The notes under the pieces are model-generated. The model saw only the letters and a program-made list of their open reading frames with translations. It ran no database searches and was not told the DNA's origin. A stretch of DNA of 61,355 nucleotides, filler included, from Dugesia japonica (lineage: Eukaryota): the NCBI GenBank assembly GCA_001938525.1. It is 4 parts of 4 records of this genome, joined end to end, with 100 filler letters (N's around TTAATTAATTAA, not from the genome) between each part and the next. Parts side by side here need not be neighbours in the genome. Positions count along the whole stretch, not along the records: positions 14,204 to 31,043 come from MQRL01585027.1; positions 31,144 to 46,225 come from MQRL01500791.1; positions 46,326 to 61,355 come from MQRL01531295.1; 1 more part is not named here. One strand, 5' to 3'. Below are positions 30,961 to 57,715 of the stretch, in pieces. Within the stretch, counting starts at the first letter, position 1; each line of letters begins with the position of its first letter. The translations under genes were made by a program, and so were the position numbers.

Positions 30961-31255
30961 TTTCGAATTATTCACAAAACATTTTCTTCTATTTAAACTC
31001 TTTTTTTAAAAAAATCTTTCTACTGATCAATAATAATAATAATNNNNNNNNNNNNNNNNNNNNNNNNNNNNNNNNNNNNNNNNNNNNTTAATTAATTAAN
31101 NNNNNNNNNNNNNNNNNNNNNNNNNNNNNNNNNNNNNNNNNNNTTATATTAAAATAAAAAACTTTAAATTAAAAATATTTTTTTTAATTTCCCGCCAAAA
31201 AAAAATTCTTAAAAAAAGGTAAAAAAAGGTAAAAAAAAAGTTTAAAAAAAAGGTA

Positions 31256-31364
31256 AAAAAAATTGATCCCAAAAATTTGATCCGATCAAAAAAAATCTGA
31301 TCTGATCAAAAAAAATTGATCCCAAAAATCTGATCCGATCAAAAAAATTGATCCCAAAAATCTG
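31256..31364. repeat. Tandem repeat of GATCCCAAAAATCTGATCCGATCAAAAAAAATT-type units, continuing into gap
   Basis: Direct reading. Confidence 0.85.
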
Positions 31365-31531
31365 NNNNNNNNNNNNNNNNNNNNNNNNNNNNNNNNNNNN
31401 NNNNNNNNNNNNNNNNNNNNNNNNNNNNNNNNNNNNNNNNNNNNNNNNNNNNNNNNNNNNNNNNNNNNNNNNNNNNNNNNNNNNNNNNNNNNNNNNNNNN
31501 NNNNNNNNNNNNNNNNNNNNNNNNNNNNNNN

Positions 31532-31750
31532 GTGCGGGCAGTGCGCCACTATCCATCTACTGAATATCCATGATTTAACTTTGTATTTGTTCTTAATTTC
31601 GTTATTAATCAGAACCAATTGCCCCAACAAAGAAATATGAGATTGGATATCAAGTTTGGAATTGCACTGACTATGCTTGCATATGTATTAATTTATGGAG
31701 TATTTGAAAATGAAATCCAAATTACATCGGACAGAGCTATACTAATGTAA
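31532..31750 (+). pseudogene. Polinton/Maverick major capsid protein (double jelly-roll), C-terminal part
   Basis: From 31562: EYP*FNFVFVLNFVINQNQLPQQRNMRLDIKFGIALTMLAYVLIYGVFENEIQITSDRAILM*. This matches the recalled Maverick MCP C-terminal pattern GNLRLELKF..AL....IVYAEFDN.IEID..R.V. Confidence 0.7.
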
Positions 31751-31820
31751 ACAATCTCATTGTTATGAAAATAGTTATTCATAATGAAGTAAGATTTGAA
31801 TATTGCTTTGATATTACTTT

Positions 31821-32177
31821 AATAGTTCAATTCAGATAAATCAAATTGCTACAATATTACTTGGATCAGAGTTTCTCAGTGTTTATCCATTGGACAAGCT
31901 TCCATTAATTTCAATTAATAAAGCCATAATTTTCAATACTCAATCATAAAATCTCGGAAGAGAGCATTGGTTAACACTTTACAATAAACCAGAAAATATA
32001 CTGGTATTCGATCCATTTGGATTTTATTATCCATCAATGTTGATCTCTCATCTATCAAGATTATCAAAACCAATTGTGTACAACAGAATTCAATATCAAC
32101 AATGGTTAACAACAACTTGCAGACAGCATTGCTTATTAGGGTTGAGATTAGACTACTGTATTAATAGGATTAAATAA
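31821..32177 (+). pseudogene. Adenain-like (adenovirus-type C5) cysteine protease of a Polinton
   Basis: NSSIQINQIATILLGSEFLSVYPLDKLPLISINKAIIFNTQS*NLGREHWLTLYNKPENILVFDPFGFYYP...VYNRIQYQQWLTTTCRQHCLL. The HW, FDPFG and Q-x5-C motifs are in the correct order; one internal stop. Confidence 0.85.
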
Positions 32178-32234
32178 ATGTATTTGAAAATATGTTTCTT
32201 ATTTACTTTGTTATTTACTTGGTTGATTTTATTG

Positions 32235-32500
32235 TTTTATATTGCCCCGAACAATGTTAATATTTTTCAGGTAATATTGATGTACCCCGAAAATATTAAC
32301 ATTTAATTTTAATGTGCCCGGTAATCTTAATATTTAATGTTATTATGCCCCGGCAATAATAATATTAAATATAAATATACCTCGTCAATATTAATATTTA
32401 ATGTTAATATGTCCCGGCAATATTAACATTTAATAATAATATTATTGGTTCACCTACATATTAACAAATCCAGACAATATTAATATTATTGTACCTCTGA
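32235..32500. repeat. Degenerate ~30-35 bp tandem repeats with CCC(G)G cores; probable Polinton subterminal region
   Basis: Repeated AATATT...G/TCCCCGG/CAATATTAA units directly after the protease. A similar array lies at about 53835-53990. Confidence 0.6.
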
Positions 32501-34019
32501 TAAATTTAGCTTCAATATATATGTTAAAAGTTTAATAGTATAAGGTTTACAAGTTTTAAATTATCAGCTTAAAATTTATCATTTTAAAATTAATCAGTTT
32601 ATAAATATCAAGTTTAAAGTTCATACATTTTAAATTCTTTAATTTTAAATTTAAAACCTAAATTTGAAAGTTTAAATTTAAACAGCATAAATGTCTTAAG
32701 CTTTTAAATTAATACGTTTTAAATGAATGTTTTAAAACTATAAAATTTATAATTACTAAGTTTTTGAATTTATAAACCTTAATTAATTAATTAATCCTTG
32801 TTTAATTATTTTAATTAAATATGGTTGACAATTATTAATTAATTAGAAAAATATGACCTCTAAAAAGTAAAGTGAAAATAGCAAAGCCTGACTTTGAAGT
32901 AGAATTACATACTTGAATAATTGATTCACTTGACTTATTTCTAACCATAACCATCCGAATTCTGGAAAAATTATCGAAACCAAAATATAATTAAAAGAAT
33001 ATTAAAAGATTGCTCAAAATCAAATATAGCCTACTCAGCAGAAATATGGAAGTTTCACAAAACTGGATTTAGAAACAACAAAATAACTTCCAATATTGAA
33101 GAATAGTATTTAAAGAATTGAAGAAACATGTGCGGGTTCCATGTAGAACTAAAAAACAAGACTGTTTGTTTATTCAAATTTGTTATTTTAAATAAATTTT
33201 ATTATTATCTAATAAAACTTTTATGACAAACGGATTTACTTATGCAACTAACCGATTTATGTCTAATGGAATACAATCAAGTATGACTTTAATTTTATAA
33301 GTTTGATTTAAAGTAATAATTCAAAGTTAATAATTTTTATGTATTTTAATTTAAGTAATTTTAGAATATATTTTATGAAAAATGTATNTATTCATTTATA
33401 TTTTAAATTTAATTATGATTATAATTTTATTACATTTTTTCCAAATGTAATGATTTTATTTTCAATGTTAAATTAATTATTATTATAATTTTTATTGTAA
33501 TGATTTTAAACTCAAGATAATATTATCAATACTTTTTTTAATGTAATAATTAGTTAATTTCATTATAATTTTTATTCTAATGATTTTATTTATATTGTTA
33601 ATTTAATCATGATTATAATTTTATTGTAATGATTAAAACTTAATACAACATTATCAAATTAAATTTAATGTTTTTAAATTTATTGAATTAACTAAATGTA
33701 TGATGAATATTTTTATAAGTTATAAGTAATTTGTAAATTTTAATTAATTACTAAGACTTTATTTATTGATTTAATTTGATGCATACAACGTTAGTGATTT
33801 TAATTAATAACAATGACTTAATATAATAATCGATTTTAATTAATAACCATGATTTAATAATTTTAACTAATGACCTTAACTTTTCAATGACCTTGACCTT
33901 TTAAATGACCTTGGCCTTTTTTATAACAAACGTCTATAAAAAATTAAAAAATAACTTTATTTATTTAAGAAACTTGCAAAATATATACGAACTATTGTGG
34001 AAATTCAAGTCATAACAAA

Positions 34020-35700
34020 AAATGTCACGAGATAATGAAAAATTACTACAGTCTTATTTATTGCGGGAAAAAATATTATCTGTTTATCATTCACTGCATT
34101 ACGGTTAGATAAATACACAGAATTTTATAAGGCACATGTACATCACTTGTCTCAATTTTTTGAAAAGAAGAGGATAGTACTGAAGAAAATTCTCCAAGAA
34201 TCTCCACGTAAGACGTTTTAAGCAGAATCAGAAGTGAAAGTCATAGAGAATGATATTAATATAAAGAACAAACCAGTCAAACCAGAGGTTATAGTTATTG
34301 AGGATGATATTGAAGAAGAAATGGACTGGAATAATATCCAAATAATTGAAGAACTAAATCAAGAAGACCTTGTTGATGAAGATGATGCAGAAGAGGTACT
34401 GCAAAATTATTTGCAAGAAGAAGAAACACAAGTTGGTGGATCCATAGACGAATCGATTATTGAAACAGACTTGTACAAATGTCACCAGATCTTGAAATTA
34501 GATGTTTCAAGATTTAACATGAGAGAGATAATTTTACCAGTTTCTTTGGTACAAATACTAAAAAAATAATCAAAGAAATGAAGGATATAAAAATACAGTT
34601 CGGAATTCATGTAGAGTTCATGCGAGATCCTGAAATAAAAAATTTTCATTTATCTAAGAGTGCTGTGCTACATAGTTATAAGTTTTTCAAAGATGGAATT
34701 AGGGTATTGAATGAGAAATTCGTTTTAAGAAGCTATTTATGAAGCAGCTAGACACTTAGTAAGATTTTGGGAAATAAATTTCAAAATAACTAAAAATAGC
34801 AAAATAAGTAGATTTTCAAGCCGTAGTTAAATCTCCACGCCTTAAAATCTTGTAAGGAAACCAGCAATTGCTAACGTTAAAAACAAAGATGATAAATGTT
34901 TTCTGTATATCATTCTCACTATTCTTAAAGGCGATGTAGTAGGAAGGAATAAAAACCGTGCAGAAACATATAAGAAATACATAGATGACCTTAGATTGGA
35001 TGAAAATGATATGAGTGAATATTCCAAAATTTGGAAAACAAAACCCNNNNNNNNNNNNNNNNNNNNNNNNNNNNNNNNNNNNNNNNNNNNNNNNNNNNNN
35101 NNNNNNNNNNNNNNNNNNNNNNCCGAACATAGATATATTTCATGGATCAAAAGTTGAGGGTGGACAAAAGATAAATTTATTATTACTTGAAGATAAGGAT
35201 AAATTTCATTATACTGCCATAGTTAATTTGAATAAACTTATGAACAGAAATATTAAAAATAAAGGTGTACAAATAAAATCAAAATGGTGTTCCAATTGTC
35301 TGAATGAATTCAGATATAACAAAGCTTTCGAGACCCATGAACTTATTTGTGAGAAGATGCAGAAGGGATCAACTCTTTATAGAATTCCTACAGAAAAAGA
35401 ATTAGTATTTACAGATATTTTAAAACAGTGACTCAGCCATATGTAATTTATGCTGATTTCGAATCAGTATTGGAGAAGGATCTTGAACATTACCAGAAAC
35501 ATTTGCCTAAATCAGCAGGTTTTTCGTTAGTAAATAATTTTACTAACGAATATCAATACCATCAATTTATCGGATCAGACTGTGTTTACAATTTTTTGAC
35601 TATGATTAAAAAAATTACCAGAAGAAAAAGATGAAAATCACACAAGAAGAATATTCTTTATGAGTGTTTATTATGTAACATAGTGACTACTAGCAACTGA
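34020..35700 (+). pseudogene. Polinton/adintovirus protein-primed family B DNA polymerase, N-terminal half
   Basis: Acidic stretch ending QVGGS; KIQFGIHVEF; NVKNKDDKCFLYIIL; IPKFGKQN; INLLLLEDKDKFHYTAIVNLNKLM; CSNCLNEF..AFETHELIC; ExoI motif YVIYADFESVL. Confidence 0.85.
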
Positions 35701-36448
35701 TCACTCAAATTTCATGAAAAATGATTACCAAATAGACATAATCAGCTTATGTGTTGCATAAATAAGAGTTGTTATTCATCCCTTTCCAGAAAATATACAT
35801 CGTTCATCATCAGCTGTGCACCCCACTACTTGCTCCTCCTTCTTCTACTCGTCTGTCCCTCTGCTTGAGCATTGGTTTTCTATGTTCCTTCCTTTCTCTA
35901 GATACTAAATAGTCAGTCTAATTGTTAACAAAATCAATATACTGTTGCATGTCTTCATCTTTTGACTATAAATTGAAAATTAATATATATGGTTTTCTGA
36001 GTATTCTAAAAGCTTTTTCGATACTCGGCGGTTTAAGTTTCAGCAAATCAATGAATAGAGAAAATTAGTGTATATAACTAGTTGTATTTGATCACAGTAC
36101 TAGATCAAATCAGTCAATTAAACTAAATTATTGCATTAAATTTTAGACTGTTAATAGAATCCAGACCAATTATGATCAAAGAAAGATACAATATGATTTG
36201 AAATAAATCTTGTAATTTAAATTATATGCATGATGTTAGAATTATTTTAATGTAAATTGAGTTATTTCAAAGTTTCCAAATTTTATATTGTTAATTTTAA
36301 TAGTAAAATAGCTTTACGATGGTCAATAGAATAAATTTAAAATAATTTCAATATTTAATTAATTAATTAATTATTAAATATTATTTCTTCTTATTATTAT
36401 AATTATTATTTATTAATATTATAATTTATTATTTATGATTTATAACTA

Positions 36449-36620
36449 AATGGTAGACAGATAGGTCCGATCGATAACAGTACCCCCCGCCTTTTTATAA
36501 GGTCAAATGTGACAGATTTCAAGCGTTTTGATTGGACGAATTTTTTTGTTTTTTAAGGTTAACTGCGACCGATTTTAAGCATTGTGATTGGTCGAATTTT
36601 TTTTATTTATTTTTTGTTTT
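36449..36620 (+). mobile_element. Putative Polinton-like terminus (TIR start)
   Basis: ATGGTAGACAGATAGGTCCGATCGATAACAGTACCCCCCG aligns with the reverse complement of 54240-54278 (ATGAGTAGGTAGATAGGAGCCGACTGTAACAAACCCCCTG). It lies just downstream of the minus-strand PolB end and carries two ATTGG boxes. Confidence 0.5.
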
Positions 36621-36834
36621 AATTGATGTATTTAAATGATTTATTATTGTTTTTTTTAAATTAAGTTCATTTATTTATTTTTTTCGTTTTAATTAGGTAA
36701 AATTTATTGCTTTTGTTTAAATTAATTGAAATTAATGATTTCTTGTTTAAATTAAGTGAAATTAATATTATGTATAGAAATTAAGTAAAATTAATGATTT
36801 TTAATTGATTGTTGTTGTAACAATTTAGATACAA

Positions 36835-37870
36835 CTGATGTGTTAATTCAGTATCTTTTAATGTTACCCCCTTAGCTTTCATGCTGGTCTTTTTGCTAAG
36901 AAGACTGTAACATTTCAGTCTCAGAAAAACCTATTCCTTGTATCTTTTACCCTTGCTTTCGCCTATGAATTTTCCTACAACGAAATTTGCTTGTTATTAT
37001 AAAGCGGATGTTCTGAATTATAATTTGAAGTGTCCAAAAACTCATTTTTAACAGTCAGTTTTAACAATCTTTCCAATCTAATACATTTCACTTCCAAGAA
37101 AAAGCTGTCGGAATCTCCTGCCACTATATTAATGATACATTTTTCATCTTTTCCGAATTTTGTAAGCTCGATGTTTTGAAGATGATAGATTCTTAGTTTA
37201 TTCAAGTCTAACACTGTTTGACCAATATAGGTAGGACGGTTGAGACAAACTTTATTTGTATTCAGCAATACAGAAATTAAATCCTGGTATATTTTAACTG
37301 TTTTCCTAAACCTAAGCTTCTACGCGTATGTAATAAGCTTTTTGGCTGAATTGCGCAGTCTGAGATTCATCTGTTTCTTTAGATTTTCTACTGTTTTTCT
37401 GACTGTTGTTTTAAAGCTTATAATAATTTTTATCTAAGTCTGATGTACTTTTCAGTCTTAGCTCAGTATTTACATCTATATACTTCTTTAAAATGTAATC
37501 TTGTGTGAACTTTATAGGTCTATGTATTTTAGCAATCGTAACACCTATCCGCATGTACAGTTGTAATAATTTACAATGTACAACATAATTCAGTTTGGTA
37601 GTATGTGTTAATAACAACTTGTTTACCTTACATCCTAGTGTGCTCTGATATTCAGCTCCAATGGGTAAATCGCTTAAATAATTGTTCAGCTTGTCCGGTA
37701 TTTTAATATCAACTTCTAGTATGCACCCATACGGTAATGAGTCTAGATCTAATGTTATACATTCATCTAATATTTGCTCTAATACAATATGTATCCATTG
37801 AAAATCCTTATATGGCAATTTCTGGCTTAATTTCGATCCATTTAAGTTATTAATATCGATGTACAAAAGC
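36835..37870 (-). pseudogene. Polinton/adintovirus PolB, C-terminal polymerase half
   Basis: LYIDINNLNGSKLSQKLP (motif A, DxNxLY), KNYYKL-NNS..K (motif B), RPTYIGQTVLDLNK, AGDSDSFF (motif C, DTDS), MKAKGV. Confidence 0.9.
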
Positions 37871-37873
37871 TAA

Positions 37874-40800
37874 GTGTTTTCGTCCGATTTCATATTGTTT
37901 GTTGTAAATTCGAATTGGATGATATCAAAGATCAAAGGGCTGGAACGAAAAAGAAGAGTTAAAGGAAAGTTCGAAAGAATAGAAATAAAAGAGTCAAATT
38001 TCAAAGTGGCAAAGAAAATAGTAGTATCATGGGGAACGATAATCCAAATAGTGCTGAAGGTAGTACTGTAACAAACACTGAAAATATTATAAGTAGTTGA
38101 CACGCATTAATACCAATGGGGGAGTGAACCACCACCCGTGACGATGCAATAAGGTAATACATTTCAGAGACTATGCTCAATAAAACCAACGTATCAATTA
38201 CAGCCACCCTGTTATCCAACAAGTCTATTGAAAGAAATGAAGCCAATTGAAATTAATAGAAGTATGAATGATAATGAACTAATGGATGCGGAAATAGAAA
38301 GACGGAACATTATGGGATTACCAAGTAACTATGTTTTGATAACCATAGCAAATTTAGGCAGACAACCAAAAATTGTAATACAGCTTAACGGAAAAGCCAT
38401 AAATGCTATTCTAGATACAGGGTCAAGTGTTACTATAATATCAGAGGAAATAGTGAACCTAGCTGCTTTGATAAATTTGGCACCTACTGAGGAAATTATT
38501 TGATCAATGTCCAAAAATGCACTTAATATAATTGGAATGATTAAAGTAGAATTGAATATTGGACGCAGAGAAATGAAGCACAATGTATTAGTGATGAGGG
38601 ATAGTCCAGTATTATGTTTTATTGATATAGACTTGTTGGAACAATTAGAAGGAGTAGCAATAGATGTGAAAACTGAAAATCTTATATATCGTCCTACAGG
38701 AGAAGTTTTTCATAGAGCACAAAAATTGTTTCTTAAACACGGCATTACTATACCAGCAAGACACAGGATGGTTTACTATGCGAATACGATAAACAAATCG
38801 GAAGAAGAATTTCTTTTTGAACCTTATGATGAATTCATGGAAAAGCACAAATTACCAATGTGTAATGGTTTAGTTACAGTGGTAGATAAAAAGTTACTGG
38901 TACGGTTCGTAAATTTCAGTGACAGACCACTGAAACTAAAAGCTAAAACTCGAATTGGACCTATCACACCGGTAGAAAAAATAATAATGAATCAATAATT
39001 ATCGCCTCAGGTAAAAAGATACAACAAACCGCTTGTCAAAAGTGAGAATCTTACTGAAAAGCAAAAACAAATTATGAATGAACTGTTTGAAAAATATGAA
39101 TGTGTATTTGCCAAACACGAATATTATCTTGGAAGAACTCATGTAATTAAAAAAAACAGGTGAATTAAGATTGTTCGTTGATTATCGAAAATTGAACAGT
39201 GTCACAAGGAAAGACACTTATCCATTGCCAATACCACAAGAGATTTATGATAGAATTAATCCGGCAACCCTTATATCAGTAATAAATTTAATAAGCGGAT
39301 ACGAGCAAATTGGAGTAGCGGAAAAATGCAAACAAATGACTGCTTCTACTGATGGAAGAGGATTTTATGAATGTACTACCATTTGGACTTACAGGAAGAC
39401 CAGCAATATTTCAACGGACCATGAATTATATCTTAATTGATTCAGATCATACGTTAGTATATATTAATGATAGTGTAGTATTCTCAACAAGTTTTGAAGA
39501 GCATTGAAAAGATTTAGAAGTGGTTTTTAAACGGTTGAATTAGCTAATATAAAAATTAAACCATCAAAGTGTGAATGGGCTAAAGAACCTGTGGTGTATG
39601 TTGGACATGTTTATCAAAGAATGGTATCAAGCTGAATCCAGATTATGTAATAAAAGTGCAGAAATTCCATACACCTAAAAATGTAAAGCAGGTTAGACAG
39701 TTTCTGGGATTAGCCAGATACTATAGAAGATTCATTCGGAATTTTACACAAATAGCCGAGCCATTGAAGAAGTTACTCATGTTTGAAAATAAATTTAAAT
39801 GGAGTCAAAAACAGCAACAAACTTTCGAAATATTAAAGAATAAATTGATATAAGAACCTATACTTAGACATCCAGATATGTCAAAACCATTTATTCTCAT
39901 GACGGACGCAAGAAATTATGCTATAGGAGCAGTATTGGGACAAAAAAATGAGGGAGAAAAAGATCATGTTATTGCGTATGCTAGTCAACTAAATAAACAT
40001 GAGAAAAACTATTTAACGATCGAAAAGGAAGCGCTAGCTATTATTTTTGCAGTACAAACTTACAGACATTACCTGATTGGTAAAAAATCTATCTATATAC
40101 AGACTATAGTCCATTACAATGGTTAATGACTCACCGGAATACAGCAAGTAGATTAATTCGGTGAGCGTTAAGTCTACAAGAANTTGACATTGAAATTAGA
40201 TACAGAAAGGGAAAGGAAAATGCCAATGCATATGCGTTATTGCGAATAGTAGAAGATAATATTGAAGATGAAAAGATAGTACTGGCCCTGATTAGACAAT
40301 CTACTAACATTGATGAGCTTAGAAAACAACAACGAAGGGATAAAGAGATAAATGAATTAATTCAAAAAACACCTACAGCAAAAACCAATCAAGGAATTAG
40401 TCAATTAATAAAGAATAAACAAAAAGATTTTGTGCAAGACGGAATTTTACAATGCATTGTGGGGAAATTGTAGAATTTGTAAAACCAGAACATTTGAAAG
40501 AAGCAATAATGTTACAATATCATGATGGAACCTTGGGAGGTCATCTATCAGCCAAAAAAACTATGTCGAGAATTAAAACTAAATATTTCTGGAAGACTAG
40601 CGAACAAGGTTTAAAAGAATGGTGTAGAACATGCGAGACATGCTTAAATAGGAAAAATACGGATACCAAAATTAAAATACCTTTAAAACCCATGCCTGTA
40701 CCTTCAGCACCCATGGAAATGACTGCAATGGATATTATTGGGCCACTGCCAGAAATAGTGAATGGGAATAAATATATACTTGTATTTTGCGAATATTTAA

Positions 40801-41520
40801 TTAAATGGCCATAAGTCTTTGCGTTACCAGATCAAAAGGCAGAAACAATAGCGCAAGTATTCGTTGAAAATATTTTATTTCGATACGGTACACCTCAAAA
40901 ACTATTGACGGATCGTGGAACAAATTTCACTAGCGATTTATTTAAAGCAATCACGGAAATATTTAAGATCTTAAAACTGACAACGTCACCATATCATCCA
41001 CAAACAGATGGATTTGTGGAACGATTCAATGGTACATTAATTAACATGTTGGCGTCTTATACGAATCGAAAACAGAAAGATTGGGATCTATTTATTGATT
41101 CATGTTTACATGCGTATAGAAATAGCGTACATTTTGGTGCAGATGAAACACCTTTTTACTTGACATACTTAAGGAGGAATAATATGCCAATAGATTTAGA
41201 ATTTCAACCACTGACAACTCAATACATGGAAGTACCTTACAATAAAACAGTAATGGTAGAGCGTGTGCATCTGAACATTAAGCATCAACAAGAAAACTTT
41301 AAAAGCCATAATGATGAAAACACTAAACATCATGGAATTAAAATTTGAGATTTAGTTTACTGAAATAAACCAGAACCAACGAAGGGCTTGATGCCAAAGT
41401 TAGAGACCATACAAAGGACCTTATGAAGTATGCGGAATAACTTATACAAATTTACAGTTAAAACCAATTAAAAATAAAAAGGCTGAACCAATTATTGTAC
41501 ATGCAAATATATGCAAAAGG
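37874..41520 (+). mobile_element. Degenerate Ty3/Gypsy LTR retrotransposon internal region (gag tail, PR-RT-RH-IN)
   Basis: PR: AILDTGSSVTII (about 38405). RT: FVDYRKLNSVTRKDTYPLP, PFGL...FQRTMN, LVYIND. RH: LMTDARNYAIGAVLGQ, IEKEALAIIFAV. IN: H-DGTLGGH..CETC, MDIIGPLP, TDRGTNF, YHPQTDGFVERFN, and GPY (about 41416). Gypsy domain order; stops and frameshifts; no LTRs seen. Confidence 0.95.
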
Positions 41521-41572
41521 CTCACGGAAGTGGATGCCCAGATATATCATTTAGATCAAAACAAAAAGCTAA

Positions 41573-42613
41573 AATGAACGGGACAATAAATTTCACAATT
41601 AATGCAAATGTGCAGTCGAAAAATGCATTATTACCCACGTTATTCGTAATCGGATGCTTAGCTAATGTATTAGGTCAGAATATTAGTCTGGGAGACAATG
41701 TTACAAAATTGAAAATTATGGACAGGATGACAATTATTACAAGATATAGCGTAATATTATGGTATTTCAAAAGTAATTCTGATGAAATGTGTTTGATTCG
41801 TAATTTGAATATATCATCAAGGTTTACGAGTTGAATTATAGAATTAACAAAATAATCATTCGAAACTTAAAAATTAACAGTGAATATGCATTTAAAATTT
41901 ATTATTTTGTCATTGAATATGTGGGTAAAAATACTACTAGTAAAATAAAAATGAAAGTTTGGTAGACAAGAATATGGACAGAGAAAATTAAAAACACGAT
42001 TGAAATTGAACCGCTTGATAATGAAATTCGTATTTATTGGAAACCAATTAATTATTTAAAGGTTACTATTGAATGTTTTAACTTAAATGCAGTGATTTTA
42101 GATACCCTGAATTGCCATAAAAGATTTATACGCTATGAAAATTTACAATCAAATATCGAGTATCGTATAAATATGATGTACTGGGAGAGGTACATCGATA
42201 AAAAGTTTACAGTGACATCTAAAAGGTGGGTTGAAATTGATAATATAAGCAAGTCATTAAACTAGTTTCGAAGAATAATAAAGTACAGATTGTGACACAC
42301 CCCAATTCTATAAAAGTGCAGATTAAATGGTTTACATCAGCGAATTATAGTAATGTGTATATCAGGAAAAAAATGATATTGCAACACTCACTAATGAACA
42401 TTCACAATATGAATTTAAAAATTTAAATTCTAATGAAAGTTATTATCTCAAAGTTAAATATTATGAAAAATCTAAATTGGAAAATCAATGGATACTATAC
42501 TTAGTAGAAAATAAATATATTCAATTAAATAAATCATTTTATGTTTTAAAAAATGACTCTTTCTATTTTAGAAATAATTCTACACTATCTAGTAAAAATC
42601 AAATTGTGCAGAC
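41573..42613 (+). pseudogene. Env-position ORF: signal-peptide-like segment plus about three fibronectin type III-like repeats
   Basis: LLPTLFVIGCLANVLG hydrophobic segment, then three roughly 90-100 aa units, each with an early Trp strand and a late NLxxNx(E)Y motif: SVILWYF...IRNLKINSEYAFKIYY; EIRIYWKP...YENLQSNIEYRINMMY; SIKVQIKWF...FKNLNSNESYYLKVKY. A few stops and frameshifts. Confidence 0.6.
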
Positions 42614-42846
42614 TACAGTAGAGGTATAAAGGCGCGAATGAGCTTGGACCCCCGATACCCTCAACTTACTGCAAATAAACATGAATTTCAATTTCGGGTA
42701 CTGCCAACGATGAATTTTCAGTTTTGGTCAATTCTTGAATAAAAATGAAAAATCATCATTTGTAGTTGTAAAAAATCAGAGTTTAACTGTTAATAATAAA
42801 TGATAAATGGGATAAAGCATCACCCCGCCTTTATACCTCTACTCTA
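42614..42846. mobile_element. ~230-bp MITE (TA-CAGTAG ends, Tc1/pogo-like)
   Basis: AGTAGAGGTATAAAGGCG (from 42617) and perfect inverted CGCCTTTATACCTCTACT (42826-42843), flanked by TA. Confidence 0.85.
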
Positions 42847-42864
42847 ATTTAATTTTTAAAAATC

Positions 42865-43680
42865 TAGTGGTGATTGATTATTAAAAATATTGAATAAAAA
42901 CTCTAATGGTTAATTCAACATGATTATTCAAATCAAGTATTTTTAATTTTGCTGGATGATTATTTAATATGATTATTGAACATGATTATTTTAACAAGTG
43001 ATTGATTATTAAATATAATTAATTTAACAAGTNNNNNNNNNNNNNNNNNNNNNNNNNNNNNNNNNNNNNNNNNNNNNNNNNNNNNNNNNNNNNNNNNATT
43101 ATTCAAAATTTCTAAATACTTTTAATCTTGCTGAATGATTATTTTAACAAGTGATTGGTGAATGATTATTTTAACAAGTGATTTTAATTCAACTTGAATA
43201 ATTTTCAGTTGGTGATGGATAATTTTAATTTAAAATTCTAGTGGTTGAATGATGATGGTGATTGATTATTTTAATTCAACATTTTAATTCAACATGGTTA
43301 TTCAACATATTCGATTGATGATGGTGATAGATAATTTTAACAAGTGATTGGTGATGGATAATTTTAACAAGTGATTGGTGATTGATTATTTAACAAGTGA
43401 TTGGTGATTGATTATTTAAATTTAATATTTTAGTGGATATCGATAATTGATATTGATAATTGATATTGATAATTGATANNNNNNNNNNNNNNNNNNNNNN
43501 NNNNNNNNNNNNNNNNNNNNNNNNNNNNNNNNNNNNNNNNNNNNNNNNNNNNNNNNNNNNNNNNNNNNNNNNNNNNNNNNNNNNNNNNNNNNNNNNNNNN
43601 NGATATTGATAATTGATATTGATAATTGATATTGATAATTGATATTGATAATTGATTATTCAACATGGTTATTCACATTA
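42865..43680. repeat. Compound tandem-repeat region incl. 13-bp GATAATTGATATT array
   Basis: TTTAACAAGTGATTGGTGA-type units at 42865-43430; (GATAATTGATATT)n at 43441-43655 spanning a gap. Confidence 0.85.
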
Positions 43681-44115
43681 TTTTCCAATTCTTTAAAAAA
43701 TTCAGTTTTATTGTTTTTTAAAGAAATTTCATTGGAAACCAAGTTAGAACTAGTTGAATATTTTTTTCTTTATGTTTATGCTTTTTTCCAAGGTTCTAAA
43801 AACGAAGTAAATGTAAATGTTCCTGTTACATTTCTATTTTGAGTTATATTTCTTTTTTTCTTATTATATGGAATATTAAAGTGATTCAAGTATTTTCTTA
43901 TTGTTTATTCATTTACATCATTATCTTTAGCAAATTTCTAAACTGAGTTATTTACAAAATCATAGTCTAGTAATTTTTTATAAATATTATCGAATGTCAG
44001 AGACATTTATATGAAGTAAAATACTGTAATCCCTACTGTAATCCGTACTGTAATCCATACTGTAAACTGTATACTGTAAACTGTAAACAAAAGTTTTAAA
44101 TAATCTATATATAAA

Positions 44116-44475
44116 ATGGATAATGAATTATGTAAACAAAAACAGAGTTCAAAGTTGAAAAAAGAATTTTCTTTAACATTAACAACTTTATTGGAAACTT
44201 TAAAAAATGTACAAAATATTGAAAAATTTAGTCTAGATGATATTAATGCTTTAAGTGAAATTCCAATAACTAAAGAATTTGAGGAAAATAAAATGTTGAC
44301 ATTAGAAGATTTAACAAAAAAATTAAAAGGGGCTTCTAAAGATGAAGAAAGTATATTTAAAGCATGTTTTACTATTATAATGGCTAGTGATACAAGATCA
44401 GGATGTATTGAAATATTATATGATGATTTGAGTACAAGGTATAATGAAGTATCAGAAATGTATAAAAAGCAATGA
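44116..44475 (+). CDS. Hypothetical 119-aa helical protein, probably adintovirus/Polinton-like
   Basis: Intact ATG-to-stop ORF, intronless; its stop overlaps the next ATG (ATGA); upstream of the capsid gene. Confidence 0.5.
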   Translation: MDNELCKQKQSSKLKKEFSLTLTTLLETLKNVQNIEKFSLDDINALSEIPITKEFEENKMLTLEDLTKKLKGASKDEESIFKACFTIIMASDTRSGCIEILYDDLSTRYNEVSEMYKKQ

Positions 44476-44795
44476 ATGAATTGCAAAAAGAGCGGGATGA
44501 GCATAATAAATTAAGGAAAAAATATAAAGAGACATTGAAACCAGAAGTAGCAAGCTTGGGTGGANNNNNNNNNNNNNNNNNNNNNNNNNNNNNNNAAAAA
44601 CCAATATTGGCTAAAGATTATGTAAAAATACATAATCAAATACGACAGGTTCATGGAGATTTAAAAGAAGGAAAATTTACACGAGTGGCAGTACCAGATG
44701 GAATAGAAAATATTAGTAGAATTTATCTTAAACCAGCATTGGAAGATTCGGTTGAAATAAAACCATCAAAGGGTAATGTTGAAAAATTCAAGTAG
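44472..44795 (+). CDS. Hypothetical basic/coiled-coil protein, probably adintovirus/Polinton-like (contains short gap)
   Basis: ATGA overlap with the previous ORF; ends 27 bp before the capsid ATG. Confidence 0.45.
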   Translation: MNELQKERDEHNKLRKKYKETLKPEVASLGGXXXXXXXXXXXKPILAKDYVKIHNQIRQVHGDLKEGKFTRVAVPDGIENISRIYLKPALEDSVEIKPSKGNVEKFK

Positions 44796-44822
44796 GACTG
44801 TTTTAAAATATTTCTATGAAAA

Positions 44823-46041
44823 ATGGATCTAGATTATAATTATAAATTTGTTCATGTACAAAATAAAGTAGATGTATTAAAATTTTCACCAATCTCTGGT
44901 TCAATGGTTAATTTAAACAAAGCAGGAGAAGTAACATTTCAATCTTTACAAAACACAAATCCATTAGACATTCGAAATGAAAAATTGTATTACAAGATTG
45001 AAATTGAACCAAAAGATGCTATACTTGAAAATGACTGGTTTCCAAATTTGTTTAGTAGGATCATCAACTATAGAAAGTATTGAAAACCCTGGAGTGGCTT
45101 CTACAATGTTGAATTTAATTTTGATTGACGAATCTTGTTTAAAATCAGCAAGTGCATATAGATGGGTACCTGATGTTAAAAATGGAACAGCTGATGATTC
45201 TAGTTTTGAAGTTAGAAAAACCTTGTTTTCATCGGGTTTTTTTCCTCTATGTGATTTGTTTGGTTTTGTTCAAAATTATAATAGATTATTATTTATTGTT
45301 TTTATACAATTGCATTTGAATAGAAATGTACAAGATGAATTAATATTTTTTAATAAAACCAAGATTGAAATAAAAACTTTGGAATTACACATACCAGAAT
45401 GGACTTTAAATCCTAGATCAGAATTAAACTATTTGGAAAAACTAGCAACAAATAAAGGAATCCAAGATTTATTTCTAGAACGAGATTTAAATAAAAATTC
45501 AAATTCTAATGGAACAAACTTTTCAATAAAGATGGGAAATTTATCCTATAGACCAAGACTTGTAATTGTTGGATTTGATGTAAATAATAATTTATTTTCC
45601 TTGAGTAGTTTAATAACTAAAAAGATTACAGATCCAGCAGATGCANCAAAAAAGATTGATAAAGTGTTTATATATTATTTAAAAAGTATACAAATACAAT
45701 TGAATAATACATATTATCCAAATACTAGAATAGAATTTGATGACAAGAATACAATATTTCCATATCAGAATTATATAGACATGTGTGTAGCATTTAATTG
45801 TAGGCCTCAATTATCAATAAAACAATGGACTAGTTTGTATCCAATATTTTGTTTTGATACTTCTGCTCAAGATGATAAAACGACCATCAACAATGTAGAT
45901 GTAACATGTCATTTAACAAAGGATACAGAATTAACTGGGGATTTGTATTGGTTAATATTACAAGAAAACCATGTTGAATTTAAAATATCAAATGGAAAAG
46001 TTATGTTTGTAGAAAATATACGAGGGAGTGATGTAAAATGA
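44823..46041 (+). CDS. Double jelly-roll major capsid protein, adintovirus/Polinton type (one frameshift at ~45060)
   Basis: PISGSMVNLNKAGEVTF; PNLFS / IESIENPGVASTM...WVPD; PLCDLFGFVQNYNRLL; RPRLVIVGF; LKSIQIQLNNTYYP; LYPIFCFDTSAQ. About 400 aa and beta-rich, as in invertebrate adintovirus-type MCPs. Confidence 0.85.
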
Positions 46042-47199
46042 CCANCTGACTGATATTAAATAAGACTGAATGACTTAAAAGTGTTTATAAAAAATGGAGA
46101 CTTTTAAATGTCCAAAATGTAATTACAGCAAGAGCAAAAGTAACAAGTCACGACACTTGAAATATTGTAAAGAGAGCTCCCAAACAGTAAAAAATGTTAT
46201 TGGAAATTCTATTGAAAATGTAAATNNNNNNNNNNNNNNNNNNNNNNNNNNNNNNNNNNNNNNNNNNNNTTAATTAATTAANNNNNNNNNNNNNNNNNNN
46301 NNNNNNNNNNNNNNNNNNNNNNNNNATTTCAAAATAAAAATTATAACCATCATTATTTGTTTATTGAAACAAATTAAAACTATATGCTCTAATCGGAAAC
46401 TATTTTTCACAAATTGGAAAATTTAGATTTAAAACTTGATTTAAATTAATTTGAAAATTTACAGGAAATAATCATTTTTTAATAACATCCTTTAAAATTT
46501 TCACAAAATTTTAAAACAAAAAATGATCGTTTGTTAATAACATATTCTTTTAAAATTTTTACAAAAACTTTCATAAAATTTTCAAAACAAAATCACCTGC
46601 TATTAAATTATCATTTTAAAATCTTAACTTTCAAAACAAAATTGTCATTTCCAAAAATTTTAATTTTAAATTAATTTGTGATTTTTAAAAAAAAAGATTT
46701 TTCAAAAAAACAATTTTCAACCATAGCACAAAAATTTTAACTCGCTTCTAAACCACTCACACAGACTAACTTAATTCGAACTTTCTTTAAATTATTTTAA
46801 TCTATCAATTTTTTAAGATTGAAAGTTTTAATCATTTCTGTAAAATTATGCTAGTATTGATTAATTTGAATAAAAATAATTATACAATCAACCAAATTTA
46901 TGTGTTACTATAAAACCAATGAACTTGATTATTCAAAGTGTGTTAGATAATATAAAATTAAAATCAATTAAAAAATATATTTAAACAGAAAAAACAAATT
47001 ATGCTTGCAAAATATTTATTATGTAAGACTGATATGTGAAATTGTAACCTCAAAAATTTAAACGAAATGAATTTTTAACAAATTAAAAAATAATCATTAC
47101 ATTAAAAAGAATTAATAACAAATGCTAGCTGCAGTTAACAAAATTTTAAGATTAAAGTTAAGTGGAGTAATTAAAGAAAAATAAGTATGAATAATTATT

Positions 47200-47320
47200 T
47201 TTCAATTATTGCGAAAATAATTGTTGTACTTAACCATTAATCGCATTTGCTATTTCATTAAAATAATAGTTTCGATCTAAATGTTGTTTTGTTTCTTTTT
47301 TTGGTAGACATTCAAATTTA
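47200..47320. repeat. Arm of the foldback repeat family seen at 57330-57715, cut by the mariner insertion
   Basis: CATTAAAATAATAGTTTCGATCTAAATGTTGTTTTGTTTCTTTTTTTGGTAGACATTC is near-identical to 57334-57392. Confidence 0.75.
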
Positions 47321-48510
47321 TATTAGGTGTACCAAAAAGTAATGCGGATTTTTAAAAATCTATTTTTTTATCATATATGATTAAATAAATCTTATTGTTT
47401 ATATATTGTATTTTGTTGGAATATTCATTGATTATTAAGATAAACATTTAAATATTATTACTTTGTTAATATTTTTAGATTTAAACATGACAAAATTTAT
47501 TCCTGGAAAAGAGCATTTGCGTGTAGTGATGATCCACTATTTTATTATGTAAAAAACTGCTGCAGAAACATACTGCATACTTTGCAATGTCTATCGGGAA
47601 CATGCACCATCTCAGGATACCAGTGAGCGTTGGATAAAGCACTTCAAAAATTATGATTTCAATGTGAAGGACAATGAACATCCAGGTAGTACTTCTGCAT
47701 TTGAAGACCGACAAATACAAGCTTTATGGGATGAAGATGCATGTCAAACTCAAAAACAACTAGTCATGCAACTAGACGTTGCCCAGCAAACAGTTTTTGA
47801 TCACTTAAAAGCAATGGGCAAGATTTTTAAGGAAGGGATATGGGTGCCATATAAACTGGACGATAGACAACTGGAAAACAGAAAAGTAGTCTGTGAAATG
47901 TTACTGCAACGACACGAACGAAAATCTTTCTTACATAAAATTCTGACAGGATATGAGAAGTGGATTTATTATAAGAATCCCACACGCAAGAAATCATAGA
48001 TTGATCCGGGTCAAGATTAAAAACAGACTGCAAAGCAAAATCGTTTAGGAAAGAAAACAAAACTCTGCGTTTGGTGGGATCAAATGGTGTGGTATATAAA
48101 ACAAGGTCAAACTATTAATTCTGATAGCTATAAAAAACAAATAATGGAGCTGAACCAATGTTTGATTACCAAACGTGCAAAATGGGCAAAAAGACATGGT
48201 AAAATAATTTTGCTCTATGACAACGCATCGTCACATACTTCAAAAGGAGTAAAAAACATGTTAAAAGATCTAGCCTGGGAAGTACTCACCGTCAGCTATA
48301 CTCACCAGATCTTGCTCCTTCAGATTTTTATCTGTTCCGATCAATGGAACATGGACTTGCTGATCAGCACTTCAAATATTAAAAAGATGTCCAAAAATGG
48401 ATCTCTGAATGGTTCGCGTCGAAACACAAAAAATTCTTTTTATGTATCTTTTAAAATTTTCGTGTTTTGTTTTTCAAAAAAATTCGCATTACTTTCCGTT
48501 GCACCTAATA
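47321..48510 (+). mobile_element. Full-length degenerate mariner (Mos1/mauritiana-like) with TIRs and TA duplication
   Basis: TA-TTAGGTGTACCAAAAAGTAATGCGGATTTTT ... AAAAATTCGCATTACTTTCCGTTGCACCTAA-TA. Transposase MTKFIPGKEHLR (from 47488), WVPYKL, ILTGYEKW (catalytic D lost), YDNASSHT, YSPDLAPSDFYLF. Confidence 0.95.
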
Positions 48511-50379
48511 TTATTATTATAATTAATTTATATTTTAATTATAATTTTTGTAAGATTCAAAATAATTACAATTTTAAGCCATTTTTGACAAAAACAAATT
48601 TTAAAAAGTTGATTAATATATGCAAATTTGAAAGTGAAAGTATTTTCAATTGTTTTAATTTCATTTTCATCGCATTGTTAAATAGATAGCTAAATACTAA
48701 TAGTTATGTAGAATTTTAAATAGATTTTTCAATTGTAAATCATACTTTAATTAAGAAAAATATGGAGTTAAATACTGTGTTAAACTCAATTAATCTGGAG
48801 CCTCATGTCGGAAAAATTTGCCCTGTTAAAAAGGTGCAAAAATGATAGACTTCGACAATTACATAGAAACAATTATGTCCAACAGAAATCTAACAAAATC
48901 TAAGAATCAATAAATTATGCCACAAAAGAAGAATCTAATAAATCACTTGGTGTAAAGTATAGTTTTATATTAACTTTTTCGTTATGGAATATTTTCAAAG
49001 TCACACTGCTCCGAATACGTGTATAAACGTTAACCCTAGATAATAAAAATTGGAGTCTGGGCGCGATTTTTAAACTTTAAAATTTAAATCTTTACTAACT
49101 CGTGACTAACACACCACANNNNNNNNNNNNNNNNNNNNNNNNNNNNNNNNNNNNNNNNNNNNNNNNNNNNNNNNNNNNNNNNNNNNNNAGTATGTATATA
49201 ATTGTTTTAATTATTATTTTCAAAGTGGTGAATTTAGGTGGTGACATGCTGACATGTCTCACTACTCTCCTGTCCATCATTTATCGTATTGAAGGAGGCA
49301 TTTTGCACTATAACTCCTTTAGACAATGTATGAATGGTTTTCGATTCTCATTTCATTGATGGTTGTTTCAACCAAAAAATTGGAACTATCCACCGTAGAG
49401 TCAAATATTTTGTTTTAGCGATATCGTCAAGAAAACATTTATATTTAAAATTTTATTAGTGAGATATATTCTACTTTTAATTCTCTATCACGTGGTATCA
49501 AAAACTTGATGAATGTGATGCCAAAACTTTGATGTAGAACGATTTAAAAAAACATTTTAAATTTTAAATCTTTAATAACTCTTTACCCTTACATCTGACT
49601 AAAGTTAAAATAACGCCATTGTGTTTATCATCTTATTGCACATCCAACAATATCAAGTTTAACCAGAAAACATTTTTGAAGTGAACTTTGAACTATAAAA
49701 TCTATATGTACCTTTAGCCACCATTTTGAATTGGAAAGAAGCATTTTGATAAATTTTGTATGGATATGTTCCTATCTTAGTTTCTAATTTTCTATCTAAA
49801 TCTGAAAACCAGAATCCACGATCACTTCATAGGCGAGAGGAGGGGGCAACATAAGGAAACATATTCCCGATTAAACAATTATAGACAGTTTTTGATGCTG
49901 ATTCTAGTGGTGCTAATATGGTTTTGTATAAATTATTATTTCATTAAGTATAAACACTCATCCCTCGATTTACACGGTAGATACGTTCTTGAAAAAATCA
50001 TGCAAAACGAAACCGTGTATATACAGTTCATACAAAGTAGCCATTAACTATTATCATTATAGTGGTGTCGTGCGCAACATCCTTTATCTAGAGAACAACG
50101 CATTATATGACCAAAGTCCTTTAGGTAATGTATATGTAGTTTTTAATTTCCAGTTGAATGATACCAATATCGACTTGATCCGATAAAAATTGAGGTTGAA
50201 TGAGTTATCAACTTTACATCTTTAATAGCGTTTCACCATCACGCTTGATTGAACCCAGAATTGCACCATGAGATTCGCCGCGTCATTACGAATCCAACGA
50301 TACCATGATAATACCTGTACAATGAAGTATCATCCGGGAAAGTCAATATAAAAATATGAATTTATTTCTATATACAAAT

Positions 50380-56916: not shown

Positions 56917-57329
56917 CTAAATTATAAATAGTTTCAATTATAAATATTCACATAAAAATAAAAACAATAAAACTTCCGCAATATAATTTTATTGTTAATC
57001 AAATGATCTATAGTACCAAAATCAATTTTACCAAACAGAATTAATTAATTATAGAAACAAAATTATAATTATTAGGCTAAACTAAATTTCAAAATAATAA
57101 ATATTAGAAGTTTTAAAAATTAGTATTCCTTTAAAAAAATTGATTTTTCCAATTGTTTTTATACAATTAATACCTTTNNATTGAACATCATAGGGCATGG
57201 ATGGCAAATAAGATTTTATCAATGTACCAAAATTTAAAAATATTAACATCAATTTTTCCGATTGCTAAAACCTCATGTTTTTATACAAAGTGCAACGATA
57301 TAATTTTCTTGTAATAAATACTAAGTGTA

Positions 57330-57715
57330 TATCATTAAAACAATAGTTTCGATCAAAATGTTGTTTTGTTTCNTTTTTTTTGGTAGATATTCGAATTTTC
57401 GACTATTATATTCTTCGAGAATATGAAGAAAATTCATAAAATAAAAGCTTCGATCAAAATTTGTTTTTTTGGTTTTTGATAATAACTCTATATTTCGACT
57501 TTGTTTTCGTCAGGAATTGACTTTTTGATTCATTCAATATTTATTTTACAATATTAATTTTCTTTGAATTAATTTGTTTTTTTTAAATTTCAATAGTCGA
57601 AAATTCGAATATCTACCAAAAAAGAAATAACAACATTTTGATCGAAGCTATTATTTTAATGAAATCTTAAATGCGATCAATGATTAAGTCCAACAATTAT
57701 TCCCACAATAATTGT
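57330..57715. mobile_element. Foldback/palindromic MITE-like repeat
   Basis: About 75-bp arms 57334-57407 and 57592-57662 are reverse complements; family fragments also at 47200-47320 and about 23840. Confidence 0.8.

What the first reader, a model, noticed from the sequence alone, without database searches (positions are those of the whole stretch)
31144..46225. 15-kb cluster of Polinton/adintovirus-like virus remnants from at least two lineages
Seen: between two assembly linkers lie a capsid C-terminus plus adenain protease, two PolB halves, a second near-complete capsid gene with upstream ORFs, terminal-like motifs and repeat arrays, interleaved with a Gypsy element and a MITE. No host exons were recognised here. 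The two capsid sequences have clearly different C-termini (RLDIKF...YGVFENEIQI vs NVDVTCHL...LYWLILQENHVEF). Established: pPolB, DJR capsid and C5 protease are core Polinton/Maverick genes. Inference: this is a hotspot where fragments of distinct virus-like elements accumulate, either a heterochromatic graveyard or a piRNA-cluster-like archive. No retroviral-type integrase or packaging ATPase belonging to these elements was recognised.
Basis: partly seen in the sequence, partly recalled or inferred. Interest (0 to 1): 0.7.

Follow-up and report, generated by a model that had tools for sequence, protein, structure and literature searches.

The report
Broken Polinton remnants, two capsid families
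A 15-kb piece of an animal genome holds broken leftovers of two known kinds of virus-like Polinton/Maverick elements mixed with other transposons, which looks like ordinary transposon debris and not a special archive.

Summary
The parts are real. The 15,082-bp scaffold holds:
- a 72-codon capsid tail followed by an adenain
- two non-overlapping, oppositely oriented pieces of a protein-primed PolB
- an LTR-less Gypsy body and a 229-bp MITE
- a near-complete double-jelly-roll capsid gene (PF21738, one frameshift)

The two capsids belong to different families. The tail groups with the capsid of Polinton contig L013 (capsid then protease); the long gene groups with the PF21738/phospholipase type of L014. 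No ATPase, penton, Polinton integrase or terminal-repeat pair was found, so nothing here is an intact element.

Contigs of three DNA runs show that every piece belongs to a dispersed multi-copy family, roughly tens to about a thousand times single-copy depth. Co-location could therefore arise without a special hotspot. One RNA run gave almost no reads. Small RNAs and long-range contiguity were not testable, and the PF21738 unit joins the rest only across gaps inside tandem arrays.

Best reading: nested, deleted and rearranged debris of two known Polinton lineages in repeat-rich DNA. The piRNA-archive idea is untested, not refuted. One side result: the scaffold is CpG-poor (0.71) against its neighbours (1.01).

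The parts
31188..31364 (.). A-rich tandem arrays (10-, 20- and 32-bp periods); very high copy; terminal role unverified
   Evidence: summed contig depth 4e4-1e5 in the bin; no inverted partner in the scaffold
31532..31747 (+). C-terminal 72 codons of a major capsid gene of the L013 type (inferred group 1 / Terrapene-class module); one stop; 5' side lies in a 167-N gap
31812..32159 (+). Adenain (C5 cysteine protease) pseudogene, one in-frame stop, directly after the capsid tail as in L013
32258..32444 (.). 32-bp five-copy array that is also self-complementary
33869..33945 (+). Three TGACCTT motifs and a TATA-like box just upstream of the PolB 5' piece (promoter-like; function untested)
34114..35625 (+). 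5' piece of protein-primed PolB (residues 27-510 of P0010), several stops and frame changes, spans a 76-N gap collinearly
36450..36800 (-). Arrays (56-bp and 29-bp periods) with two CCAAT-like boxes and one TGACCTT, downstream of the inverted PolB piece
36778..37893 (-). 3' piece of protein-primed PolB (residues 813-1178 of P0010), two frameshifts and four stops, opposite in orientation to the 5' piece
37894..42615 (+). Decayed Ty3/Gypsy body (protease, RT, RNase H, integrase, then an extra 3' reading frame); no LTR pair found
42616..42844 (.). 229-bp MITE, 19-bp inverted arms, TA on both sides (Tc1/mariner-like footprint; superfamily label from recall)
42910..43660 (.). 13-, 27- and 33-bp tandem arrays containing two assembly gaps; the weak link between the second capsid unit and the rest
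44104..44795 (+). Two reading frames (123 and 109 codons) upstream of the second capsid; no significant Pfam match and no match to L013 or L014 genes
44820..46041 (+). Near-complete double-jelly-roll major capsid gene of the PF21738 family (L014 type; inferred group 2 / Mayetiola-class module), one frameshift near 45060
46091..46225 (+). Start of a small Cys/His-containing reading frame, cut by the scaffold end; only a weak zinc-finger hit (E 0.22)

Best explanation
The scaffold is transposon debris in repeat-rich DNA of an AT-rich animal. Shown: pieces of two Polinton/Maverick capsid families, one adenain, two pieces of one PolB lineage, a Gypsy body and a MITE lie side by side, all broken and all multi-copy in the species. 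Inferred mechanism: at least two Polinton-type proviruses integrated here at different times with their own integrases (lost here or supplied by other copies). A Gypsy element and a MITE inserted among them. Deletions, plus either an inversion or a second copy in the opposite direction, then removed the integrase, ATPase, penton, ends, LTRs and the middle of PolB. The locus encodes no working virus and most likely does nothing beyond being tolerated, probably silenced, repeat DNA.
For: Two capsid families: the tail scores 73 against P0193 (0 of 1000 shuffles reach it), 33 against the window's second capsid (221 of 1000) and at best 39 against the tails of 91 PF21738-type proteins. In a quick tree it pairs with P0193 at 97%. 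P0193 has no PF21738 hit, P0001 has. Both PolB pieces sit nearest the P0010 group (support 81/98 and 84/88). Junctions look like deletion breakpoints: PolB homology stops near 37890 where Gypsy-side sequence begins, and no LTR pair exists. Multi-copy: depth at sampled sites is 784-1851 times single-copy depth at 31762, 27-55 at 34398, 78-104 at 37112, 14-73 in the second capsid and 5-76 in the Gypsy. With assumed genome sizes of 0.3-1 Gb, random insertion gives 0.1-10 such two-family loci, at least 1 in 4 of 8 settings. A further PolB scrap lies on the neighbouring scaffold at 15079-15283 (E 4e-6). RNA run X12: 62 of 10,544,396 reads laid, 60 only partly, 3 at 99% or more. Several lineages per genome and truncated copies are published (passages of PMC11131425, PMC11244446).
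Against: Three Polinton-derived units make up about a third of this scaffold, while the other 46 kb of the window hold one scrap, so local enrichment is real at window scale. The tool states that depth is no copy number; values vary widely along a gene (24-395 at 31964, 3-7 at 37054) and the genome size is assumed. No listed contig spans the stretch or the 35.7-36.4 kb and 37.9 kb junctions, and 39,033 records were not shown. The capsid-tail family rests on one reference, found with a pattern that fixes 7 of the 19 identities. CpG depletion (0.71 against 1.01) suggests the DNA was treated differently from its neighbours.
Confidence: 0.68

Rival explanations
1. Partly an assembly artefact: a short-read assembly joined pieces of multi-copy families, above all the second capsid unit (43602-46225), across tandem arrays, so the two capsid lineages are not neighbours in the chromosome.
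For: The scaffold is six contigs. The gaps at 43033-43097 and 43479-43601 have the same array family on both sides. All parts are multi-copy and no listed piece spans the stretch.
Against: The capsid tail, adenain and PolB 5' start share one 3,515-bp contig. The 76-N gap lies inside PolB with collinear homology. Both PolB orientations, the Gypsy and the MITE share one 7,910-bp contig. Near-identical, low-depth pieces of the three DNA runs cover 32235-32575, 34682-35046, 35783-36147, 37371-37816, 42710-43010, 43714-44182 and 44511-44862.
Confidence: 0.15
2. A piRNA-cluster-like trap or archive: the locus is transcribed as a precursor and its Polinton and Gypsy fragments yield small RNAs that silence the abundant related copies.
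For: Dense, host-gene-free mix of virus-like and retrotransposon fragments; 4 of 5 coding units lie on the + strand. Polintons are piRNA targets in a planarian (passages of PMC8532177) and are enriched in some planarian cluster types (passages of 10.64898/2026.01.28.702291). The host here is not identified.
Against: In raw RNA run X12 (about 6 in 100 of the run read) only 62 reads were laid, mostly partial, on both strands and largely in low-complexity or very high-copy bins; 13 of 30 bins had any depth. One PolB piece is on the opposite strand. Multi-copy families can explain co-location.
Confidence: 0.1
3. One composite or recombining element: a single PolB lineage flanked by two different capsid modules, a relic of the capsid-module exchange proposed for adintoviruses.
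For: Both PolB pieces are of one lineage and do not overlap. L013 and L014 carry the same PolB class (36% identical over 1185 positions) with different capsid modules. PMC8502044 (part 2 read) proposes such module transfer. The scaffold length matches a Polinton.
Against: No terminal repeat pair, ATPase, penton or integrase. Depth of the capsid-tail/adenain unit is over ten times that of PolB and the second capsid at most sampled sites, so they did not spread as one unit. The second capsid unit is separated from PolB by a Gypsy, a MITE and two gaps.
Confidence: 0.07

Closest known systems
Polintons/Mavericks = adintoviruses (Polintoviricetes), group 1 / Terrapene-class virion module; example L013 (IMG/VR contig)
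   Same: Capsid C-terminus of the same family (33% over 58 aa), with adenain immediately downstream on the same strand. L013 also carries the same PolB class. The group name is inferred from gene content and the papers, not from a tree with named references.
   Different: Only the last 72 capsid codons and a broken protease remain; no penton, ATPase, integrase or ends. The adenain family is no closer to the L013 protease (profile E 5.8e-9) than to the L014 protease (2.1e-12).
Polintons/Mavericks group 2 / Mayetiola-class (Alpha) virion module with PF21738 capsid and phospholipase A2; example L014 (16,929-bp contig with inverted ends)
   Same: PF21738 capsid (23% over 347 positions to L014, E 6e-18) and a PolB class whose full-length relatives carry endonuclease VII (P0010, L014). 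PMC8502044 and 10.64898/2026.06.19.733378 tie the phospholipase to this class or group.
   Different: The window's capsid belongs to an unnamed subclade (42-46% to six metagenome proteins). Upstream frames do not match L014 genes; no phospholipase, ATPase, penton, integrase or ends.
HNH-bearing pPolB2 class of nematode and oomycete Polintons (PMC10748475)
   Same: The nearest full-length relative P0010 has PF03175 plus PF02945 endonuclease VII, an HNH-type domain (the link between PF02945 and HNH is recalled).
   Different: The endonuclease region itself (residues 543-582 of P0010) falls in the part missing here. No named pPolB2 sequence was compared.
Degraded endogenous adintovirus relics (human chromosome 7 relic in PMC8502044; truncated methylated adintoviruses of Amoebidium in PMC11244446)
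   Same: Pseudogenised capsid and PolB pieces embedded in host DNA; several lineages in one genome.
   Different: Here two capsid families and a Gypsy are packed in 15 kb and belong to families that still appear abundant in the species.

Membership tests
Intact Polinton/Maverick (Polintoviricetes) | Protein-primed PolB | tested here: met
   Two broken pieces covering residues 27-510 and 813-1178 of P0010; middle absent
Intact Polinton/Maverick (Polintoviricetes) | Retrovirus-like (rve) integrase of its own | tested here: not met
   L013 and L014 integrases match only the Gypsy integrase at 40737-41192
Intact Polinton/Maverick (Polintoviricetes) | Double-jelly-roll major capsid protein | tested here: met
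   PF21738. Model of relative P0001 (43% identical; not the window's own protein) has pLDDT 92.7 and matches iridovirus, PBCV-1 and virophage capsids at E about 1e-14, TM about 0.6
Intact Polinton/Maverick (Polintoviricetes) | Penton (minor capsid protein) | tested here: not met
   No hit with the L013 255-aa or L014 256-aa proteins taken as pentons by position and recall; a divergent penton could be missed
Intact Polinton/Maverick (Polintoviricetes) | FtsK/A32-type packaging ATPase | tested here: not met
   No hit with L013 or L014 ATPases; no Walker A match in six frames
Intact Polinton/Maverick (Polintoviricetes) | Adenain protease | tested here: met
   31812-32159, one stop
Intact Polinton/Maverick (Polintoviricetes) | Terminal inverted repeats | tested here: not met
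   No inverted pair between candidate ends
Intact Polinton/Maverick (Polintoviricetes) | 6-bp target-site duplication (recalled) | not testable with these tools
   No ends defined; the scaffold stops at linkers and no genome is held
Group 1 / Terrapene-class capsid module (capsid tail) | Capsid sequence family distinct from PF21738 | tested here: met
   one reference only, found with a pattern fixing 7 of 19 identities
Group 1 / Terrapene-class capsid module (capsid tail) | GasderminX and cupiennin-like accessory genes (PMC8502044) | tested here: inconclusive
Group 2 / Mayetiola-class capsid module (second capsid) | PF21738-type capsid as in phospholipase-bearing L014 | tested here: met
Group 2 / Mayetiola-class capsid module (second capsid) | Phospholipase A2 (PLA2X) gene | tested here: not met
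   No hit of the L014 phospholipase in the window
piRNA cluster | High density of uniquely mapping 24-31-nt 5'-U small RNAs | not testable with these tools
   No small-RNA run was laid; the single lay was used on X1, X4, X2, X12
piRNA cluster | Long precursor transcript, usually one strand | tested here: inconclusive
   62 of 10,544,396 reads in one run, mostly partial, both strands; tissue unknown
piRNA cluster | Transposon fragments mostly in one orientation | tested here: inconclusive
   4 of 5 coding units on +; too few to test
Ty3/Gypsy retrotransposon | Order protease-RT-RNase H-integrase | tested here: met
Ty3/Gypsy retrotransposon | Paired LTRs | tested here: not met
   No direct repeat between 35601-38400 and 41301-44100 beyond short AT-rich matches; filed as a truncated remnant

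The most novel reading that the evidence does not exclude
The scaffold is a host-maintained trap that collects pieces of different DNA-virus-like Polinton families and turns them into silencing small RNAs. Its CpG loss (0.29-0.41 in the capsid units against 1.0 in neighbouring DNA) would then record methylation aimed at virus-like DNA in an animal whose ordinary DNA shows no CpG loss. Such a locus could also be where one PolB lineage meets and swaps capsid modules.
Probability: 0.1. Interest if true: 0.65.

Novelty: new member of a known kind. Interest (0 to 1): 0.27.

Why it matters
As it stands it adds unnamed subfamilies of two known Polinton capsid lineages in one invertebrate. It also hints that one family is amplified to about a thousand copies, which is useful for repeat annotation but not surprising. 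It would matter more if small-RNA data showed the locus to be a piRNA source against DNA-virus-like elements, or if the CpG loss proved to be methylation aimed at these elements. Either would give a testable case of inherited defence against Polintons in an animal.

Tried and rejected
- Own genome not held, so no genome-wide copy map or flanks.
- IMG/VR scans for close relatives of the second capsid, PolB (28) and the capsid tail (54) found none. The adenain scan gave one giant-virus-type contig, L008, dropped as irrelevant.
- The pattern scan gave 5 loci. L013 was a Polinton; L009, L011 and L012 looked like phage contigs; the L010 listing was partly cut and was not used. The pattern gave 0.
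- The metagenome scan gave 7 short PolB loci without useful gene context.
- The Atlas gave no usable hit for the capsid tail. For P0001 it gave PF21738 clusters at 0.97, but recognition was below its stated threshold, so this is a lead only.
- The first structure model (4 sequences) was poor, pLDDT 43, and was replaced.
- PDB sequence searches gave nothing useful for the adenain piece alone, the capsid tail or the capsid profile. Rfam: 0 matches.
- Run search: no RNA holder listed.
The group names therefore rest on gene content.
- The host lineage was not established: cluster look-ups gave no organism names. The planarian papers were read on a guess and are context only.
- Paper searches with 0 results: PF21738/DJR-like with polinton; Gypsy with fibronectin type III and env-like. 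'polinton + piRNA cluster + endogenous viral elements' listed 2 papers, listing only.
- Earlier-finding look-ups by place, sequence and most word sets gave nothing.
- Rejected: the two capsids are one family; an intact element; the arrays are proven termini.
Full report
Setting. The window is AT-rich (about 26% G+C) and is cut into four scaffolds by 100-bp linkers. The finding is the third scaffold, 31144-46225, 15,082 bases, made of six contigs. No genome is held. The host was not identified; an animal host is inferred from the element types. Near-identical, low-depth contigs in three DNA runs of 'organism A' from three studies show that the sequence belongs to that species. X1 may be the source sample.

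Second capsid. 44820-46038(+) matches PF21738 above its cut-off and six database proteins at 42-46%. It is split by one frameshift near 45060. A profile of four relatives found 1,123 proteins at E up to 0.001. A 91-row alignment gave a model of relative P0001 with pLDDT 92.7. That model matches iridovirus, PBCV-1, Sputnik and mavirus capsids (E about 1e-14 to 1e-12, TM about 0.6). The fold is carried over to the window's gene by 43% identity, not modelled on it directly. Contig L014 is 16,929 bp with inverted ends. It holds a PF21738 capsid, phospholipase A2, ATPase, integrase, PolB with endonuclease VII and a protease, and its capsid matches the window's at 23% over 347 positions. PMC8502044 (parts 1-3 of 6 and the readable start of its supplement) makes the phospholipase a mark of the Mayetiola-class module. 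10.64898/2026.06.19.733378 (passages and section 5) calls it common in group 2. The label 'group 2' is therefore an inference.

First capsid and protease. The tail at 31532-31747(+) has no Pfam, PDB or Atlas hit. It aligns to the C-terminus of the capsid of Polinton contig L013 (P0193) with 19 of 58 identities, E 3e-7. L013 was found with a pattern that fixes 7 of those 19 positions, so part of the match is built in. The other 12 identities are not, and neither is the shared order capsid-then-protease. The tail scores 73 against P0193 (shuffles 27.7 +/- 4.2; 0 of 1000 reach it), 33 against the window's second capsid (221 of 1000) and at most 39 against 91 PF21738-type tails. A quick tree of 38 tails pairs it with P0193 at 97%. 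P0193 lacks PF21738 and shows no BLAST similarity to the second capsid, although the family profile recognises it as a distant homologue (E 4e-45). The adenain at 31812-32159 has one stop and 63-71% identity to six relatives; their profile hits adenovirus proteases. It cannot be assigned to either module by sequence, only by position.

PolB. Against P0010 (PF03175 plus PF02945), the 5' piece covers residues 27-510 on the + strand and the 3' piece covers 813-1178 on the - strand; about 300 residues between them are absent. Both pieces fall nearest the P0010 group in separate trees (81/98 and 84/88 support; the 5' piece has a long branch). They are thus of one lineage, but without overlap it cannot be told whether they are one inverted copy or two copies. 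L013 and L014 carry this PolB class with different capsid modules, so PolB does not say which capsid it belongs to. Its depth resembles that of the second capsid more than that of the first unit, a weak hint. The opposite orientation lies inside one 7,910-bp contig, so it is not a scaffolding flip.

Other parts. A Gypsy body (protease, RT, RNase H, integrase) runs from about 37894 to 42615 without LTRs. It abuts the broken PolB on one side and a 229-bp MITE on the other. These look like deletion junctions. No ATPase, penton, Polinton integrase or phospholipase was found with L013 and L014 genes, and no terminal inverted pair. The 'terminal-like motifs' are thus unverified. TGACCTT plus TATA-like boxes before the PolB 5' piece look more like promoter elements (inference).

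Is it a hotspot? Laid contigs show depth over all 30 bins in all three DNA runs. Relative to single-copy depth, sampled sites give 784-1851 at 31762, 24-395 at 31964, 27-55 in PolB 5', 3-104 in PolB 3', 14-73 in the second capsid and 5-76 in the Gypsy. The tool warns that depth is no copy number, so these are orders of magnitude only. With 300-1500 and 15-70 copies in an assumed 0.3-1 Gb genome, random insertion gives 0.13-9.75 loci with both families within 15 kb, and 4 of 8 settings give at least one. One such locus therefore needs no special mechanism. Against this, the other 46 kb of the window hold only one PolB scrap (15079-15283), so this scaffold is locally enriched. That is expected where insertions are tolerated, and also where short-read assemblies leave repeat-only scaffolds (own knowledge).

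Contiguity. No listed piece spans the stretch. Pieces cover 42710-43010 and 43714-44182, but the two gaps in the 43-kb arrays are not bridged, and the 35.7-36.4 kb and 37.9 kb junctions are not among the rows shown; 39,033 records and 313 joints were not displayed. The link of the second capsid unit is the weakest.

Expression and silencing. In raw RNA run X12 (about 6 in 100 read) 62 of 10,544,396 reads were laid, 60 only partly and 3 at 99% or more, on both strands. One of seven raw RNA runs was laid, and no small-RNA run. CpG observed/expected is 0.71 (194 against 274) in this scaffold and 1.01 (747 against 739) in the three neighbours. By unit it is 0.31 for the second capsid unit (11 against 35, P 2e-6), 0.41 for the first unit, 0.61 and 0.72 for the PolB pieces and 0.81 for the Gypsy. 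A mariner outside the scaffold has 0.67 and intact L014 has 0.74. A synonymous-codon shuffle was borderline for the capsid (p 0.045) and negative for the PolB and integrase frames. So the depletion is real but may be element-wide or inherited. Methylation silencing of adintoviruses is published for Amoebidium (PMC11244446, passages), and piRNA targeting of Polintons for a planarian (PMC8532177, passages; 10.64898/2026.01.28.702291, passages). Neither is shown for this host.

Comparison and verdict. Core Polinton genes are as defined in PMC4028283 (parts 1-2 of 4). Coexisting lineages, fragmented copies and high Polinton loads in invertebrates are in print (passages of PMC11131425 and 10.1101/2025.04.19.649669; PMC10748475 part 2, section 8 and passages). 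The locus fails the test for an intact Polinton and is filed as remnants derived from two known lineages. I found no paper on such a two-family cluster as a piRNA source in the searches (listings only); protein supplements that I could not read bear on the group labels. Best explanation: nested, deleted and rearranged debris (0.68). Rivals: mis-join (0.15), piRNA archive (0.10), module-swap relic (0.07). Interest 0.27.

Noticed in passing
window 41487-42614: The Gypsy carries an extra 3' reading frame, in the place of an env gene, with a hydrophobic leader-like stretch and a weak fibronectin type III / Ig-like hit (PF00041 E 0.014, below cut-off). Depth is multi-copy like the rest of the Gypsy, so it seems part of the element. 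A paper search on this combination found nothing.
   Followed up: partly
window 31144-32159: The arrays, capsid tail and adenain have roughly a thousand times single-copy depth at 31762, far above PolB and the second capsid. This could be a highly amplified family or a non-autonomous derivative.
   Followed up: partly
window 31144-46225: CpG depletion (0.71, down to 0.29 in the second capsid) against 1.00-1.02 in each neighbouring scaffold; the mariner at 47553-48460 is also lower (0.67).
   Followed up: partly
window 33869-33945 (+) and 36493-36600 (-): TGACCTT motifs next to TATA-like boxes occur beside both PolB pieces; the motif resembles a nuclear-receptor half-site (recalled). 5 of 10 window matches lie in this quarter of the window.
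   Followed up: no
window 15079-15283: A further short PolB scrap (E 4e-6 to P0010) on the neighbouring scaffold.
   Followed up: partly
window 47553-48686 and 396-1865: Decayed mariner transposases with Mos1-type HTH and partial DDE domains.
   Followed up: partly
window 35700-36450 and 32838-33230: Unidentified multi-copy stretches (bin depth 2,000-4,000) between the Polinton genes; the second may be a decayed accessory frame, no useful Pfam hit.
   Followed up: partly
window 57328-57717, 47200-47302, 23804-23876: A dispersed family of short inverted-repeat elements in the neighbouring scaffolds.
   Followed up: no
L014:1-16929: An apparently complete Polinton with inverted ends among IMG/VR contigs, carrying a PF21738 capsid, phospholipase, ATPase, integrase, PolB and protease; a handy reference for this group.
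   Followed up: partly
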